From: Bacteroidia bacterium
GTDB taxonomy: Bacteria > Bacteroidota > Bacteroidia > NS11-12g > UBA9320
Direction of reading: 5' to 3'
Assembly: GCA_049115575.1 (NCBI GenBank)
Contig: JAGDZU010000004.1
Span: 83,094-147,093, forward strand
DNA length: 64,000 bases
A model generated the notes under the pieces. The model saw only the letters and a program-made list of their open reading frames with translations. It made no database searches and was not told the DNA's origin. The translations under genes were made by a program, and so were the position numbers. Shown here piece after piece: positions 17,246 through 50,929 of this stretch. The stretch's first letter is position 1, and the number at the start of each line of letters is the position of its first letter.

Positions 17246-17440
17246 TTATTCTATGATTTCTTTTACACGACCTACTTCTCCGGTCTCTAAAAGAACTTTG
17301 ATTCCATGAGGATGGAACTTTGATTTGGTGAGTATCCTTTCAACAAACCCACTGGTTAGATCTCCTGTAGATTGGTCTTCTTTCATTACAACCATTACTT
17401 CGCTACCTATTTTAACATCATTTCGATTTCTACCGTCCAT
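17246..17440 (-). CDS. YwbE/DUF2196 family small protein
   Basis: K.DQ.TG.LT.G.V..ILTKS.FHPHGIKV.L..G.VGRV family signature. Confidence 0.9.
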   Translation of the reverse strand: MDGRNRNDVKIGSEVMVVMKEDQSTGDLTSGFVERILTKSKFHPHGIKVLLETGEVGRVKEIIE

Positions 17441-17490
17441 TGCTTTTTGGATTTGCTCTTAAAGAGAGTTAGATTTGTAAAATTTGCTAT

Positions 17491-17524
17491 AAAGAAAAAG
17501 TCCCGGCCATATAGGCCAGGACTT
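17491..17524 (-). terminator. Rho-independent terminator
   Basis: Minus strand AAGTCCTGGCC-TATAT-GGCCGGGACTT followed by TTTCTTT. The 11-bp stem has one G-U pair that forms only on the minus strand. Confidence 0.8.
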
Positions 17525-17595
17525 AATTTCAAAGATAAAATACTAAACTACTACTTATGATGAAAATTATTAACCATGTGTACCTTGCGGTACAT
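17491..17595 (-). ncRNA. Candidate sigma54-dependent small RNA (about 100 nt)
   Basis: Bounded by a -24/-12 promoter and an intrinsic terminator. It begins with the hairpin UGUACC-GCAA-GGUACA and has an AU-rich unstructured core. Confidence 0.7.
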
Positions 17596-17605
17596 CTTAT
17601 AGTAA

Positions 17606-17620
17606 GCTAATACTGTGCCA
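17606..17620 (-). promoter_or_regulatory. Sigma54 (RpoN) -24/-12 promoter
   Basis: Minus strand TGGCACAGTATTAGC, i.e. TGGCAC with exact GG-N10-GC spacing. The predicted +1 (about 17594-17595) falls at the start of the hairpin. Confidence 0.75.
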
Positions 17621-17637
17621 ATAGCTTTCTTGTTGAC

Positions 17638-17650
17638 AGTCAGTCTTTTA
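17638..17650. promoter_or_regulatory. IHF-like DNA-bending site upstream of the sigma54 promoter
   Basis: AGTCAGTCTTTTA matches WATCARNNNNTTR with one mismatch, about 45-57 nt upstream of the predicted +1. Confidence 0.4.
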
Positions 17651-17761
17651 AGTTTTTCAACCATCAATTATTCTCTCTTTTTTAGACACTTTTTTCTCAT
17701 TATTGGACTTATGGCAATTAGTCGGTTTGTGTGCTCTTTGAGTTTTATATAGATTGCATGC

Positions 17762-18202
17762 ATGTCAATATCTTATAAAGTAATAATCGTATTAGCCATG
17801 TTCATTTGCTCATCATGCTCTCGACAAGAGCCTGATATTGAGAAAGATACAGCCAATATTGAAGCTCTTCTTGCTCAGCAGCTAGTGGATTGGAATAATG
17901 GAGATATTGAAGCTTTCATGCAAACATATTGGGATTCCGAGACCTTGAGATTTAGTAGCAGAGGTGGTACAGCTTATGGCTGGAATAATGTCTTAGACAT
18001 GTACAAACGCTCATTCCCAGATAGAGAAAGTATGGGGCAGCTGCATTTTGACATAGACACCATATTTACTAATAGATATCCAATGGTTCAGGTAAATGGC
18101 GCCTTCCATCTATATAGGTCGGACACCTTAGAAGGTCCATTCTCTTTATTCTTTGAAAAAATTGATAGTGAATGGAAAATTACAGAAGATCATACATGGT
18201 AA
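17762..18202 (+). CDS. NTF2/SnoaL-like lipoprotein (DUF4440/YybH-type)
   Basis: Lipobox CSSC, WNNGDIEAFM..YW, MGQLHF and WKITEDH. Confidence 0.8.
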   Translation: MSISYKVIIVLAMFICSSCSRQEPDIEKDTANIEALLAQQLVDWNNGDIEAFMQTYWDSETLRFSSRGGTAYGWNNVLDMYKRSFPDRESMGQLHFDIDTIFTNRYPMVQVNGAFHLYRSDTLEGPFSLFFEKIDSEWKITEDHTW

Positions 18203-19246
18203 TTACAGCAGTATATTCCATGAATACGCATCTTCTTTTCTTCCAAATTTGTAGTCTTCAAGTTCTTTCTTAATTCCAACGATACCTTGGTGATTCTCTG
18301 ATTTCAAAGAATATATCTTATCATCTATTTCCAGTTTATCAATAAAGGTTATTGCCGCTGCAGTACCTGTGGCAAATAAACATTCCACAGAATTCTGTTC
18401 CAGTTTGTCTCGAAGGAAGTTCTTGGAGATCTTGGTTTCAACCACTTCCACTCCACTTCTCTTAATTAATTTAATTACCGAATCTCTGGTAATTCCAGCC
18501 AATATACTGTCGTGAAGTTCTGGTGTGTACACCACCCCATCTATAACCATAAACAGATTCGCCGACCCCAACTCTTCCAAATATTCATTTTCCGTTCTAT
18601 CAGTCCAGATTAGTTGATCATAGCCTTGATCCTTTGCAAGCATTGATGGCATAAATGCCGCTGCATAATTCCCAGCTGCTTTGGCGTGACCTACTCCACC
18701 CTGAACTGCTCGGGAATATTTCGATTCTACTTTCACATCTATAGGTCTGTCATAGTAAAAGCCTACAGGAGATGCAATCAGCATAAACCTATACTTCACA
18801 CTTGGGATTGCCCTTAATGTAGGAGAGGTGGCAATAATAAAAGGTCTTACATACAAAGAGCCTTGATGTTGTTCAGGCACCCACGCCCTATCCAATTGAA
18901 GCCATGCTATTATAGCATCCATTATCTGATTTTCATCAATTTCGGGAATAGCCAATCTATTTGCGGAAAGATTCAATCTTGAAATATTGTCTTTCGCTCT
19001 AAAGAGATTTACTTCACCCGCATCAGTCTTATAAGCTTTCAAACCTTCAAAAATGGCTTGGCCATAATGGAATACATGACTTGCAGGATGATATTCCATT
19101 GGACCAAAAGGTCTGATTTCCATTTCACTCCATGTGTCACCATCAAATTCAGCAACTATCATGTGATCAGTAAATGCTTTACCAAATACCAACTGATCGA
19201 AATCAACATTTGCTAAACCTGAACTCTTGCTCTCACTCACTCTCAT
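18203..19246 (-). CDS. ilvE: Branched-chain amino acid aminotransferase
   Basis: FGKAFTDHM, FHYGQAIFEGLKAY, LYVRPF, AKAAGNYA (PLP lysine), ILAGITRDS, TGTAA. Confidence 0.95.
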   Translation of the reverse strand: MRVSESKSSGLANVDFDQLVFGKAFTDHMIVAEFDGDTWSEMEIRPFGPMEYHPASHVFHYGQAIFEGLKAYKTDAGEVNLFRAKDNISRLNLSANRLAIPEIDENQIMDAIIAWLQLDRAWVPEQHQGSLYVRPFIIATSPTLRAIPSVKYRFMLIASPVGFYYDRPIDVKVESKYSRAVQGGVGHAKAAGNYAAAFMPSMLAKDQGYDQLIWTDRTENEYLEELGSANLFMVIDGVVYTPELHDSILAGITRDSVIKLIKRSGVEVVETKISKNFLRDKLEQNSVECLFATGTAAAITFIDKLEIDDKIYSLKSENHQGIVGIKKELEDYKFGRKEDAYSWNILL

Positions 19247-49327: not shown

Positions 49328-50929
49328 ATGCAACTCGCCAAAAAACTCAATGAATTCTATCCTATAGGCCTTATAGGACTATGCTTATTCCCTCTGCTTG
49401 TAGGTTGCATTATAAATATTGAGCTTGTCACATTTCGAGATGTAATAATTAACCTGATTTGGTTGCCTCTTTTCAGTATTCCTGCACTACTACTCAAGAA
49501 AAGCTGGCCGCTTAGATTAGCCTCTATTATATACTTATTGGTAGGAATAATTGAGATTACTCATTGGGTCATAGTAAAGGGCCCCATTACTGTCACAAGT
49601 ATACTAGTTCTTGGAAACACGAACTATCAAGAGGCTTCTGAATTTATGTCTTTGAAAGGAACTCCATGGCTGCTTTTGCTAATTCCTTTTGTTGTCCTAT
49701 TTGTGATGGCTTGGAGATCTACTCCTCAACTGTTAACCTATAAAAGGAAAAAAGTAGTACTGGCATTGGTTAGTTCATTGTCTATTCTTTTCATAGCCGA
49801 AAATGCATTCAATAACAGATTAGGACGAAAAGGTTCTCCTCAAATCATTAAAGTAGCAACAGCTTTTAACGAACAGATGGATTTCTACAGAGAAGCTAAT
49901 GTTAAACAAGAAGTTAAGCAAGTAACTGCCACTTCAGAAGTGCCTGAGCAGACTTTAGTTCTTGTGATAGGAGAATCACATAGTAAAAATCACATGTCTC
50001 TTTATGGATATGAAAAAAGAACGACACCACTCTTAGAAAAACGTAATGACATTTATGCTTATACAGATGTAATCGCATCATTCTCAAATACCATTAATGC
50101 CATATTGGCCATGTTGTCTGAAGTGAACGTAGAAAACGATATCAGCATGAAAAGGGCGGTAGACATTATAGATGTCTTTGCATCTGCAGGATTTGAGACC
50201 TATTGGATATCTAATCAGTCCCCTTTGGGAATTTGGGAAAATCGCATTACAGCGTTTGCCAAGAAATCTCATCATTTAAGTTTTGTTAATCTAACAAGCA
50301 ATTCATCTATGGAAACCAATTTTACGGCCTCATATGATGATCGCATTTTTGAGCCCTTTCAAAATATATTGAAGTCAGAACATAAAAAAAAGTTGATTGT
50401 ACTTCATTTGATGGGAAGCCATTCAGCATATGCTAAAAGATATCCTCCAAGTTTTGATGTTTTCAAAGGTGAGGGAGAGCGCAATCGTGTACTAGCGGAA
50501 TACCACAATTCCGTTCTTTATAATGATTTTATTCTGGATAGTATTTTCAATGAACTCCAGACTTACAGCTCCAGAAAACCCAAACAGATAGTATCATGTG
50601 TTTATCTATCTGACCATGGTGAAAATGTCTATGACGAAGGTGATATCGCAGGGCACGATTATGCTAAATGGGTGCCAAAATCAAATATGGAAATTCCATT
50701 ATTGTTCTGGATTTCAGAGTCTTATGCCAGCCTCTGGCCAAAGAAGGCATTGCAAATCCGGTCAAATAGGACAAAGGCATTCATGACCGACGACCTGTTT
50801 CACACATTAATGGATTTGACTCATATAGAATCGCCATACTTAGACATACAGCGCAGCGTAATTAGCGTTAAATACGACGAAAGTCGAAAACGCATGCTAG
50901 AAGACGAGCAAGACTACGATTTGAAGTAA
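49328..50929 (+). CDS. Phosphoethanolamine transferase (EptA/CptA-like)
   Basis: N-terminal TMs, TN.QEA.EF, VIGES, LYGY.R.TTP, catalytic Thr region SNT, HLMGSH and SDHGE. Confidence 0.85.
   Translation: MQLAKKLNEFYPIGLIGLCLFPLLVGCIINIELVTFRDVIINLIWLPLFSIPALLLKKSWPLRLASIIYLLVGIIEITHWVIVKGPITVTSILVLGNTNYQEASEFMSLKGTPWLLLLIPFVVLFVMAWRSTPQLLTYKRKKVVLALVSSLSILFIAENAFNNRLGRKGSPQIIKVATAFNEQMDFYREANVKQEVKQVTATSEVPEQTLVLVIGESHSKNHMSLYGYEKRTTPLLEKRNDIYAYTDVIASFSNTINAILAMLSEVNVENDISMKRAVDIIDVFASAGFETYWISNQSPLGIWENRITAFAKKSHHLSFVNLTSNSSMETNFTASYDDRIFEPFQNILKSEHKKKLIVLHLMGSHSAYAKRYPPSFDVFKGEGERNRVLAEYHNSVLYNDFILDSIFNELQTYSSRKPKQIVSCVYLSDHGENVYDEGDIAGHDYAKWVPKSNMEIPLLFWISESYASLWPKKALQIRSNRTKAFMTDDLFHTLMDLTHIESPYLDIQRSVISVKYDESRKRMLEDEQDYDLK

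What the first reader, a model, noticed from the sequence alone, without database searches (positions are those of the whole stretch)
17491..17650. Stand-alone sigma54-driven small RNA locus
Seen in sequence (minus strand), in order: an IHF-like site (17638-17650); TGGCACAGTATTAGC with exact GG-N10-GC spacing (17620-17606); a hairpin UGUACC-GCAA-GGUACA with a GNRA tetraloop starting at the predicted +1 (about 17594); about 55 nt of AU-rich unstructured sequence; and an 11-bp terminator whose G-U pair and U-tract fix the minus orientation. Established: sigma54 promoters need an enhancer-binding ATPase and often IHF, and Vibrio Qrr sRNAs are a precedent for sigma54-driven sRNAs. Inference: this is an unannotated trans-acting sRNA of about 100 nt, controlled by an activator encoded elsewhere.
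Basis: partly seen in the sequence, partly recalled or inferred. Interest (0 to 1): 0.85.

Follow-up and report, generated by a model that had tools for sequence, protein, structure and literature searches.

The report
Conserved sigma54-type small RNA gene
This is a real, previously uncatalogued small-RNA gene of about 105 bases, kept almost letter for letter across one family of uncultured aquatic Bacteroidota and preceded by a conserved sigma54-type promoter with its enhancer, so it is a new example of a known kind of regulator.

Summary
On its own it is weak evidence: the promoter pattern occurs 2 times in the window against 0.56 expected. Comparison with relatives makes it strong.

- **Distribution:** a covariance model finds one copy in this genome and copies in 42 of 66 genomes of the same family. 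I found no credible copy in 85 sister-family or 147 class-level genomes.
- **RNA shape:** both hairpins covary. The roughly 50-nt "unstructured" middle is the most conserved part, with 22 invariant columns. The downstream gene is not conserved. Rfam has no match.
- **Promoter:** 35 of 40 loci keep a -24/-12 element at a fixed distance from the 5' hairpin. They also keep an IHF-like site and a tandem-dyad enhancer 87-89 nt upstream. Five loci have a Bacteroidota housekeeping-type promoter instead.
- **Machinery:** rpoN and three enhancer-binding proteins are present.
- **Activator, unresolved:** one REC-AAA+ regulator, followed by an Hpt gene, co-occurs with the RNA (36 both, 6 RNA only, 5 regulator only, 19 neither). 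One complete genome contradicts it.
- **Candidate targets:** these carry conserved ACUACUAC leaders. They are a small exported protein, a hybrid histidine kinase and a second small transcript.

Expression is untested. Verdict: a new member of a known kind.

The parts
17489..17595 (-). Small-RNA gene, about 105 nt, from the predicted start at about 17595-17593 to the end of the U tract
   Evidence: Model R1 gives a single hit in the window, 17489-17595, at 125.1 bits. It is the only strong hit in the whole genome. Homologues occur in 42 of 66 family genomes.
17579..17594 (-). 5' hairpin of 6 pairs with a GCAA loop, beginning at the predicted transcription start
   Evidence: Fold. Among 15 short-hairpin homologues, 94.4% of cells pair and 2 of 6 pairs show compensatory changes; versions slid by 1-3 columns pair at 4-58%. 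Other lineages carry a different hairpin sequence with a GAGA or GUGA loop at the same place.
17525..17578 (-). Single-stranded conserved core, the likely pairing or binding surface; the invariant block is about 17540-17562
   Evidence: 22 invariant and 28 nearly invariant columns in 41 sequences fall mostly here. It is unpaired in the centroid fold. It is about 88-92% identical between genera whose neighbouring aminotransferase is 42-64% identical.
17488..17524 (-). Intrinsic terminator: stem-loop 17498-17524 plus U tract
   Evidence: In the alignment, 7 of 10 pairs have at least one sequence with both sides changed and the pair kept.
17605..17620 (-). Sigma54-type -24/-12 promoter element
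   Evidence: An equivalent element sits at a fixed distance from the 5' hairpin in 35 of 40 loci. GG is kept in 34 of 35 and GC in 23 of 35; I counted these by eye. It is one of only 4 intergenic matches to the strict pattern in the genome, and another precedes dnaK.
17638..17650 (-). IHF-like site between enhancer and promoter
   Evidence: TAA-N4-YTGAT stands at the same place in 16 of the 32 rows, counted by eye; others differ by one or two letters. The genome has two HU/IHF-family genes.
17673..17708 (-). Candidate enhancer (UAS): two tandem dyads of the TTCY-N7-RGAA type with centres 21 bp apart
   Evidence: Its start lies 87-89 nt upstream of the TGG in 29 of 32 loci. This locus scores 28.1 bits in the genome scan.
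18203..19246 (-). Class IV aminotransferase gene, the conserved upstream neighbour; not part of the RNA
   Evidence: Pfam PF01063. tblastn finds it next to the RNA in most loci.
17762..18202 (+). Divergent lipoprotein-like gene with a weak DUF4440 match, present beside the RNA in only some lineages
   Evidence: E = 0.004, below the Pfam cut-off.
17246..17440 (-). DUF2196 (YwbE-like) gene downstream; not conserved beside the RNA
   Evidence: Pfam PF09962. It is found only in this genome's own locus.

Best explanation
A gene for a trans-acting small RNA of about 105 nt. It has a 5' hairpin, a roughly 50-nt single-stranded and almost invariant core, and an intrinsic terminator.

It is transcribed by RNA polymerase with sigma54. 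An NtrC-type enhancer-binding protein would bind a tandem-dyad enhancer about 90-125 bp upstream of the start. An IHF/HU-type bend between the two would bring the activator to the promoter.

Shown here: the gene is conserved, structured and stand-alone, and the promoter architecture is conserved.

Inferred: the RNA acts through its core. Most likely it pairs with ACUACUAC-containing leaders of a few mRNAs and so changes their translation or stability. The candidates are a 52-aa exported protein, a hybrid sensor kinase and some type IX secretion cargo.

The activator is not identified. The best lead is a REC-AAA+-DNA-binding regulator followed by an Hpt gene. With the hybrid kinase, that would give a phosphorelay feeding a sigma54 sRNA, as in Vibrio LuxQ/LuxU/LuxO-Qrr.
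For: **Real RNA gene**
- One strong R1 hit in the genome.
- Hits in 42 of 66 family genomes and 12 of 13 genera.
- In 85 sister-family genomes there is only one weak hit, E = 0.008.
- In 147 class-level genomes outside the family there were 6 weak hits. I read the 2 best and both are gene 3' ends plus terminators.
- A 23-nt core pattern finds 38 stretches in 185,579 species genomes, all of them uncultured Bacteroidota-type records.
- The terminator has 7 of 10 pairs with compensatory change, and the 5' hairpin covaries.
- One relative carries two tandem copies.

**Promoter**
- The -24/-12 element is at a fixed distance from the hairpin in 35 of 40 loci.
- The enhancer is at 87-89 nt in 29 of 32 loci, with an IHF-like site between them.
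- rpoN is in this genome, in 63 of 66 family genomes and in 42 of 42 good-quality ones.
- Three EBPs are present.
- The same strict motif precedes dnaK. A transcriptome study of Flavobacterium psychrophilum lists sigma54-type promoters before GroES/EL and before a putative regulatory RNA, Rfp36 (PMC9723704, passages read).

**Activator lead**
- The EBP-C orthologue against the RNA: both 36, RNA only 6, EBP only 5, neither 19 (my tally).
- An Hpt gene follows it in the two genomes examined.

**Targets**
- The 5' leader of the 52-aa ORF has 14 + 10 nt complementary to the core.
- Its 12-mer is invariant in 5 genomes of 3 genera while the coding region drifts.
- ACTACTAC stands just before the kinase start codon in 4 of the 16 loci examined.
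- The same tandem dyad precedes both genes.
Against: - No transcript evidence exists. The four contigs from RNA-labelled libraries that were laid are of low depth (3-4.7). Three run on into promoter DNA and the fourth covers the promoter itself, so they may be DNA.
- The -12 GC is absent in 12 of 35 sigma54-type loci, by my own count.
- Five loci of one genus have a TAnnTTTG housekeeping-type box and no TGGCA, so sigma54 control is not essential to the RNA.
- The promoter motif alone is not significant in the window.
- Against the EBP-C lead: G016 is 100% complete and has the RNA with a sigma54-type promoter, but only the two other EBPs. The genus with the swapped promoter still shows the co-occurrence (5 of its 6 RNA-bearing genomes have EBP-C). 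Related genomes are not independent samples.
- The tandem dyad also stands before units without a recognisable sigma54 promoter, so its binder may not be an EBP.
- Against base-pairing targets: antisense matches of 10 nt or more are not enriched genome-wide, 404 against 290-591 in controls. Counts before start codons are small, 6 of 69 against 1 of 69.
- A conserved stretch of about 50 nt is longer than known seeds usually are.
Confidence: 0.68

Rival explanations
1. It is a real small RNA that works as a protein-binding or decoy RNA rather than by pairing with mRNAs. The long invariant core, with its repeated UAG/AGU units, would be a platform for an RNA-binding protein. Alternatively it would partner the second small transcript.
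For: About 50 nt are nearly invariant across genera, more than a seed needs. Antisense matches show no genome-wide enrichment. A second conserved, terminator-ended transcript carries 9 + 12 nt complementary to the core, with duplex z of -1.4 to -3.9 in 5 genomes.
Against: No candidate protein was identified. Conserved complementarity in the mRNA leaders of two genes fits base pairing. The two modes do not exclude each other.
Confidence: 0.15
2. It is a real small RNA that sigma54 does not transcribe. The conserved TGGCAY-N5-T element would be the site of another factor, and the tandem dyad would belong to an ordinary transcription factor acting with the housekeeping or an ECF sigma factor.
For: The -12 GC is missing in 12 of 35 loci. 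One genus uses a TAnnTTTG box. The dyad occurs next to units without a sigma54 motif.
Against: The -24 GG is kept in 34 of 35 loci with fixed spacing to the hairpin. That places the RNA 5' end about 12 nt after the -12 element, which is sigma54 geometry and not -35/-10 geometry. This locus has no TAnnTTTG box. The enhancer spacing and the IHF-like site are typical of EBP promoters. The same motif precedes dnaK.
Confidence: 0.12
3. It is a cis-acting leader or attenuator of the downstream gene, or a 3' element of the upstream aminotransferase gene.
For: A terminator lies 55 nt before the DUF2196 start. The aminotransferase is a conserved upstream neighbour on the same strand. The best sub-threshold Rfam matches include leaders.
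Against: The downstream gene is not conserved. In this genome a gene on the opposite strand lies between the aminotransferase and the RNA. The unit has its own conserved promoter. The Rfam scores are far below threshold, 29.2 against 58.7.
Confidence: 0.03
4. It encodes a tiny peptide: an 8-codon frame starting at the ATG inside the core.
For: An ATG-led 8-codon frame ending in two stop codons is present in most copies.
Against: The start codon is missing in several lineages that keep the rest (L025, the L027 group and L053). Conservation continues unchanged for about 30 nt past the stop.
Confidence: 0.02

Closest known systems
Qrr sRNAs of Vibrio (LuxO/sigma54-dependent; Rfam Qrr)
   Same: A short terminator-ended sRNA with a sigma54 promoter and an upstream activator site. 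A possible phosphorelay of hybrid kinase, Hpt protein and REC-AAA+ activator is encoded elsewhere in the genome. There is possible feedback on the kinase and activator mRNAs. One relative has tandem copies. Sigma54/EBP control of a Qrr is stated in the title and abstract of PMC10162802 (search listing); the rest about Qrr is recalled.
   Different: There is no sequence or structure match in Rfam. The phylum is different. No Hfq-type partner is known to me in Bacteroidota (recalled). The activator is a generic NtrC-family protein, no closer to LuxO than to Aquifex NtrC1/NtrC4. The dyad differs from the LuxO site as I recall it. No quorum signal is implied.
GlmY/GlmZ (Enterobacteria) and CrcZ/CrcY (Pseudomonas)
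   Same: These are sRNA genes with a sigma54 promoter, an IHF site and tandem EBP sites upstream (recalled; the CbrB paper PMC6296734 was seen only as a search listing).
   Different: They are unrelated in sequence and act mainly as decoys for proteins (RapZ, Crc/Hfq). They occur in Proteobacteria only.
Rfp36, putative regulatory RNA of Flavobacterium psychrophilum
   Same: It is in the same phylum, and the paper's table lists it under a predicted sigma54-type (SM4) promoter (PMC9723704, passages read).
   Different: Its sequence is in supplements that I could not open, so homology is untested. Model R1 found no credible hit outside the family in the 147 class-level genomes sampled.
GibS and other Bacteroides sRNAs
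   Same: The layout is the same: a 5' hairpin, a single-stranded seed and a terminator (recalled). The weak Rfam alignment to GibS covers the whole unit.
   Different: The score is 22.7 bits against a threshold of 115, so it is not a member. As I recall, GibS is not sigma54-dependent.

Membership tests
Sigma54-dependent promoter | GG at -24 and GC at -12, ten bases apart, about 12 nt before the start | tested here: met
   Window 17620-17606. In relatives GG is kept in 34 of 35 loci and GC in 23 of 35 (by eye).
Sigma54-dependent promoter | rpoN and at least one enhancer-binding ATPase in the genome | tested here: met
   rpoN. Three proteins carry PF00158. rpoN is in 63 of 66 family genomes.
Sigma54-dependent promoter | Upstream activator sites, often with an IHF bend | tested here: met
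   The tandem dyad lies 87-89 nt upstream in 29 of 32 loci. An IHF-like site is present. HU/IHF genes are present. Binding itself was not tested.
Sigma54-dependent promoter | Transcription lost without RpoN or its activator | not testable with these tools
   The lineage is uncultured. RNA-library contigs were uninformative.
Trans-acting base-pairing sRNA | Own promoter and terminator, independent of neighbouring genes | tested here: met
   The downstream gene varies; the upstream aminotransferase is syntenic but separate.
Trans-acting base-pairing sRNA | Conserved accessible seed with conserved complementary sites in targets | tested here: inconclusive
   The seed is conserved. Two leaders have conserved complementarity. 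There is no genome-wide enrichment.
Qrr (Rfam) and every other Rfam 15 family | Score at or above the family's gathering threshold | tested here: not met
   0 matches at gathering score in the window. The best sub-threshold match is L20_leader at 29.2 against 58.7.
LuxO-LuxU type phosphorelay | REC-AAA+-HTH activator with an adjacent Hpt gene and a hybrid kinase | tested here: inconclusive
   An EBP-Hpt pair is present in G000 and G071, and a hybrid kinase is encoded elsewhere. This is a likeness of architecture only. The protein is no closer to LuxO than to other NtrC proteins, and no link to the RNA has been proven.
Cis-regulatory leader or attenuator | The same downstream gene in relatives | tested here: not met
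   DUF2196 is found only in this genome's own locus.

The most novel reading that the evidence does not exclude
A Qrr-like circuit outside the Proteobacteria. A hybrid sensor kinase would pass phosphate through a small Hpt protein to an NtrC-type activator. The activator would bind the tandem dyad and switch on this sigma54 sRNA. The RNA would then pair with ACUACUAC leaders of the kinase and activator mRNAs (feedback), of a 52-aa exported protein that could be a signal precursor, and of type IX secretion cargo. A second small transcript under the same dyad would act as its sponge.
Probability: 0.18. Interest if true: 0.8.

Novelty: new member of a known kind. Interest (0 to 1): 0.52.

Why it matters
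Few regulatory RNAs of Bacteroidota are understood, and I know of none in this uncultured aquatic family.

Here comparison alone yields a complete unit: enhancer, bend site, -24/-12 promoter, RNA and terminator. It also yields a short list of candidate partners that share the same upstream dyad.

That gives a concrete set of parts to rebuild in a tractable host: RNA, promoter, three candidate activators and two conserved leaders. It could test how sigma54 and small RNAs are wired together in a phylum without a known Hfq-type chaperone (recalled).

The replacement of the sigma54 promoter by a housekeeping-type promoter in one genus is a natural experiment on how such a gene is rewired.

Tried and rejected
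**Rfam.** There was no match at gathering score in the window, nor in the loci of the second transcript and the small ORF. Sub-threshold matches were rejected as terminator plus A/U-rich likeness.

**Expression.** One search for runs found no run holding half or more of the sampled words. Four RNA or possibly-RNA runs were laid, and each gave one low-depth contig from a relative. Three contigs run on into promoter DNA and the fourth covers the promoter itself. They say nothing about transcription, ends or strand. I name no habitat from them.

**Whole-genome duplex scan.** The first version timed out. The k-mer-seeded version gave long, loop-rich duplexes without accessibility terms and with no shuffled control. 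I used it only as a pointer.

**Enrichment tests.**
- Antisense matches of 10 nt or more numbered 404, against 591, 591 and 290-569 in controls. There is no enrichment.
- ACUACUA is not a general leader motif: 4 of 443 putative leaders.

**Enhancer motif.**
- An IUPAC form of the enhancer was too insensitive. The 31 known sites carry 1-6 mismatches to it. The planned count of dyads per family genome was therefore dropped.
- The enhancer matrix was built from the RNA loci themselves, this one included, and its genome hits have no shuffled control.
- The matrix finds no site near the three EBP genes. By eye, dyad-like repeats with other spacing precede EBP-C.

**EBPs.**
- EBP-A has an orthologue in 66 of 66 genomes, so its profile is uninformative.
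- The apparent split of EBP-C in this genome coincides with masked bases (N) in the held copy, so it cannot be judged. I did not try to fill them.

**Outside the family.** Of 6 weak hits outside the family, I read the 2 best. Both are the ends of protein genes plus terminators. The other 4 were not read.

**E. coli-type promoter.** The hit TTGGCA-16-TAAGAT was set aside because, as I recall, Bacteroidota housekeeping promoters use other boxes.

**Papers.**
- For PMC9723704 I read passages. Its supplements, which hold Rfp36, were not available.
- For PMC8895600 I read passages and found nothing on a LuxO-Qrr type circuit in Bacteroidetes.
- All other papers were seen only as search listings.
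- Those three searches turned up no described sigma54 sRNA of this family. That is not proof of absence.

Full report
**What is there**

On the minus strand the following lie in order.
- A tandem dyad at 17708-17673.
- An IHF-like TAAAAGACTGACT at 17650-17638.
- TGGCACAGTATTAGC at 17620-17606.
- A 6-bp hairpin with a GCAA loop at 17594-17579.
- An A/U-rich stretch at 17578-17525.
- An 11-bp terminator at 17524-17498 followed by a U tract.

The unit sits in a 320-bp gap. On one side is a divergent lipoprotein-like gene (17762-18202, plus strand). On the other is a DUF2196 gene (17440-17246, minus strand).

The RNA folds well: -31.7 kcal/mol, z = -4.74. The promoter pattern alone is not significant in 64 kb: 2 found against 0.56 expected, and 10 of 100 shuffles reach 2. 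Rfam 15 has nothing at gathering score. Its best sub-threshold match is L20_leader at 29.2 bits against 58.7.

**It is a conserved RNA gene**

*Distribution.*
- A DNA search of 40 relatives matched 20 of 24 genomes of the same family. The best-kept part is window 17580-17488, at about 88-92% identity between genera.
- The neighbouring aminotransferase is only 42-64% identical in the same comparisons.
- A 23-letter core pattern found 38 stretches among one genome each of 185,579 species. All are records of uncultured Bacteroidota-type organisms.
- From 42 distinct copies I aligned 41 and built model R1.
- R1 finds one strong hit in this genome (125.1 bits; five others at E 0.35-0.9).
- R1 finds hits in 42 of 66 family genomes, in 12 of 13 genera, and in 28 of 42 good-quality genomes.
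- In 85 genomes of the sister family there is one weak hit, E = 0.008.
- In a class-level sample, 6 of 147 genomes outside the family gave weak hits. The two best are the 3' ends of protein genes plus terminators.

*Structure.*
- In the terminator, 7 of 10 pairs show compensatory change. One pair is U-G in 25, C-G in 10 and U-A in 6 sequences, which fixes the strand.
- In the 15 short-hairpin copies the 5' hairpin pairs in 94.4% of cells, with 2 of 6 pairs compensatory. Slid versions pair at 4-58%.
- Other lineages have a different stem with a GAGA or GUGA loop at the same place.

*The core.*
- The middle of the RNA holds 22 invariant columns.
- The short ORF inside it loses its ATG in several lineages, so the constraint is on the RNA.

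*Neighbours.* The downstream gene is not conserved. The upstream aminotransferase is.

**The promoter**

I aligned 40 loci that have at least 260 nt of upstream sequence.
- 32 matched a relaxed -24/-12 expression at the expected place. Three more have near matches (L044, L063, L065).
- Five, from genus g4 and look-alikes, instead have TTG-N17-19-TAnnTTTG just before the hairpin. I recall that as the Bacteroidota housekeeping promoter form.
- By eye, GG is kept in 34 of 35 sigma54-type loci and GC in 23 of 35.
- The distance from TGG to the core anchor is 64 nt in short-hairpin copies and 71 nt in long-hairpin copies. The promoter therefore keeps its distance to the start of the hairpin.
- Upstream, a 36-nt tandem dyad (two TTCY-N7-RGAA units, centres 21 bp apart) begins 87-89 nt before the TGG in 29 of 32 loci.
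- Between dyad and promoter, TAA-N4-YTGAT stands in 16 of 32 rows (by eye).

*Required machinery.*
- The genome has rpoN. So do 63 of 66 family genomes.
- It has two HU/IHF-family genes.
- It has three EBPs: EBP-A (REC-AAA+-HTH_8, 453 aa), EBP-B (AAA+-HTH_8, next to lptE) and EBP-C (REC-AAA+, followed by an Hpt gene).

*Genome-wide.* The strict promoter pattern occurs 23 times in the genome. Four occurrences are intergenic: this one, one before dnaK and two others. In Flavobacterium psychrophilum, sigma54-type promoters were mapped before GroES/EL and before a putative regulatory RNA, Rfp36 (PMC9723704, passages).

**Which activator**

- EBP-A has an orthologue in all 66 genomes, so its distribution says nothing.
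- EBP-C orthologues (66-90% identical) are in 41 of 66 genomes.
- Against the RNA my tally is: both 36, RNA only 6, EBP-C only 5, neither 19.
- The Hpt gene follows EBP-C in G000 and G071.
- By sequence EBP-C is a generic NtrC-family protein. Its best solved relatives are Aquifex NtrC4/NtrC1, and LuxO scores similarly.

*Against EBP-C.*
- G016 is 100% complete and has the RNA with a sigma54-type promoter, but only EBP-A and EBP-B.
- The co-occurrence also holds in the genus whose RNA has lost the sigma54 promoter.
- Related genomes are not independent samples.
- In the held copy of this genome the EBP-C gene contains masked bases, so its apparent split cannot be judged.

**What the RNA may act on**

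A matrix of the enhancer finds four other sites of 20 bits or more in this genome (no shuffled control).

*Site 1: the 52-aa exported ORF.*
- The site precedes a 52-aa ORF with a signal peptide, downstream of mfd.
- Its leader has 14 + 10 nt complementary to the RNA core.
- In the four relatives that a DNA search recovered, the 12-mer TAAACTACTACT is invariant while the coding part drifts.

*Site 2: the hybrid kinase and a second transcript.*
- The site lies between two divergent units.
- One unit is an 872-aa hybrid sensor kinase (HisKA-HATPase-REC). ACTACTAC stands 4-12 nt before its start codon, as it does in 4 of the 16 homologous loci examined.
- Homologues of the kinase N-terminus are in 27 of 66 genomes, and 25 of those have the RNA. 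Many of these matches cover only the last third of the query.
- The other unit is a terminator-ended transcript of about 150 nt, conserved in 5 genomes. It carries 9 + 12 nt complementary to the core. Predicted duplexes have z of -1.4 to -3.9.

*Other leaders with ACUACUAC.* These belong to three type IX secretion cargo proteins and a single-domain receiver.

*Against.*
- Long antisense matches show no genome-wide enrichment.
- Counts before start codons are small: 6 of 69 against 1 of 69 for the reverse motif.
- The dyad also stands before units without a visible sigma54 promoter.

**Verdict**

The locus is a new family of small RNA with a textbook sigma54 enhancer architecture, confined to one uncultured Bacteroidota family.

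It works like Qrr, GlmY/Z or CrcZ in how it is switched on. It is not a member of any catalogued RNA family.

The activator, the targets and the likeness to a Lux-type phosphorelay are inferences of decreasing strength. Expression has not been shown.

Noticed in passing
Outside the window: G000:C4:345989-346160 (+), locus L102 about 1490-1660: A second terminator-ended transcript of about 150 nt, directly after a copy of the tandem dyad. It is conserved in 5 genomes of 3 genera, and its conserved centre is complementary (9 + 12 nt) to the core of the small RNA. It may be a sponge or a partner RNA. Rfam has no match.
   Followed up: partly
Outside the window: G000:C2:351146-351449, locus L101 2147-2446: A 52-aa exported protein gene downstream of mfd. 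It is preceded by the tandem dyad, and its leader is complementary to the small RNA. The leader is better conserved than the protein.
   Followed up: partly
L027, L028, L029, L062 and L076 (genus g4 and look-alikes): In these copies of the RNA the sigma54-type promoter and the dyads are replaced by a TTG / TAnnTTTG housekeeping-type promoter. Even so, within genus g4 the RNA still co-occurs with the EBP-C regulator (5 of 6 RNA-bearing genomes). This is unexplained.
   Followed up: partly
L012 (G008:C13), two copies about 330 nt apart: Tandem duplication of the whole unit, each copy with its own dyads, IHF-like site and -24/-12 element.
   Followed up: no
Outside the window: G000:C1:693087 (-): A strict sigma54-type motif directly upstream of dnaK. 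This suggests sigma54 control of chaperones, as reported for a Flavobacterium.
   Followed up: no
Outside the window: G000:C4:544941 (-) and G000:C2:263804 (-): These are the two other intergenic matches to the strict sigma54 pattern. After the first there is no obvious start codon within about 95 nt, and a small hairpin follows.
   Followed up: no
window 50662-50677 (-): The second match to the sigma54 pattern in the window. My crude ORF test placed it inside a long open frame.
   Followed up: no
G013:C35, G074:C315, G081:C277, G075:C33: In these relatives a copy of the tandem dyad lies just downstream of a fourth enhancer-binding protein of about 395 aa (REC-AAA+, too short for a C-terminal DNA-binding domain). 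This genome lacks that protein.
   Followed up: no
Held copy of G000, EBP-C gene region: The held sequence contains a few masked bases (N) inside this gene. They make it look frameshifted, so nothing can be concluded about its integrity.
   Followed up: partly
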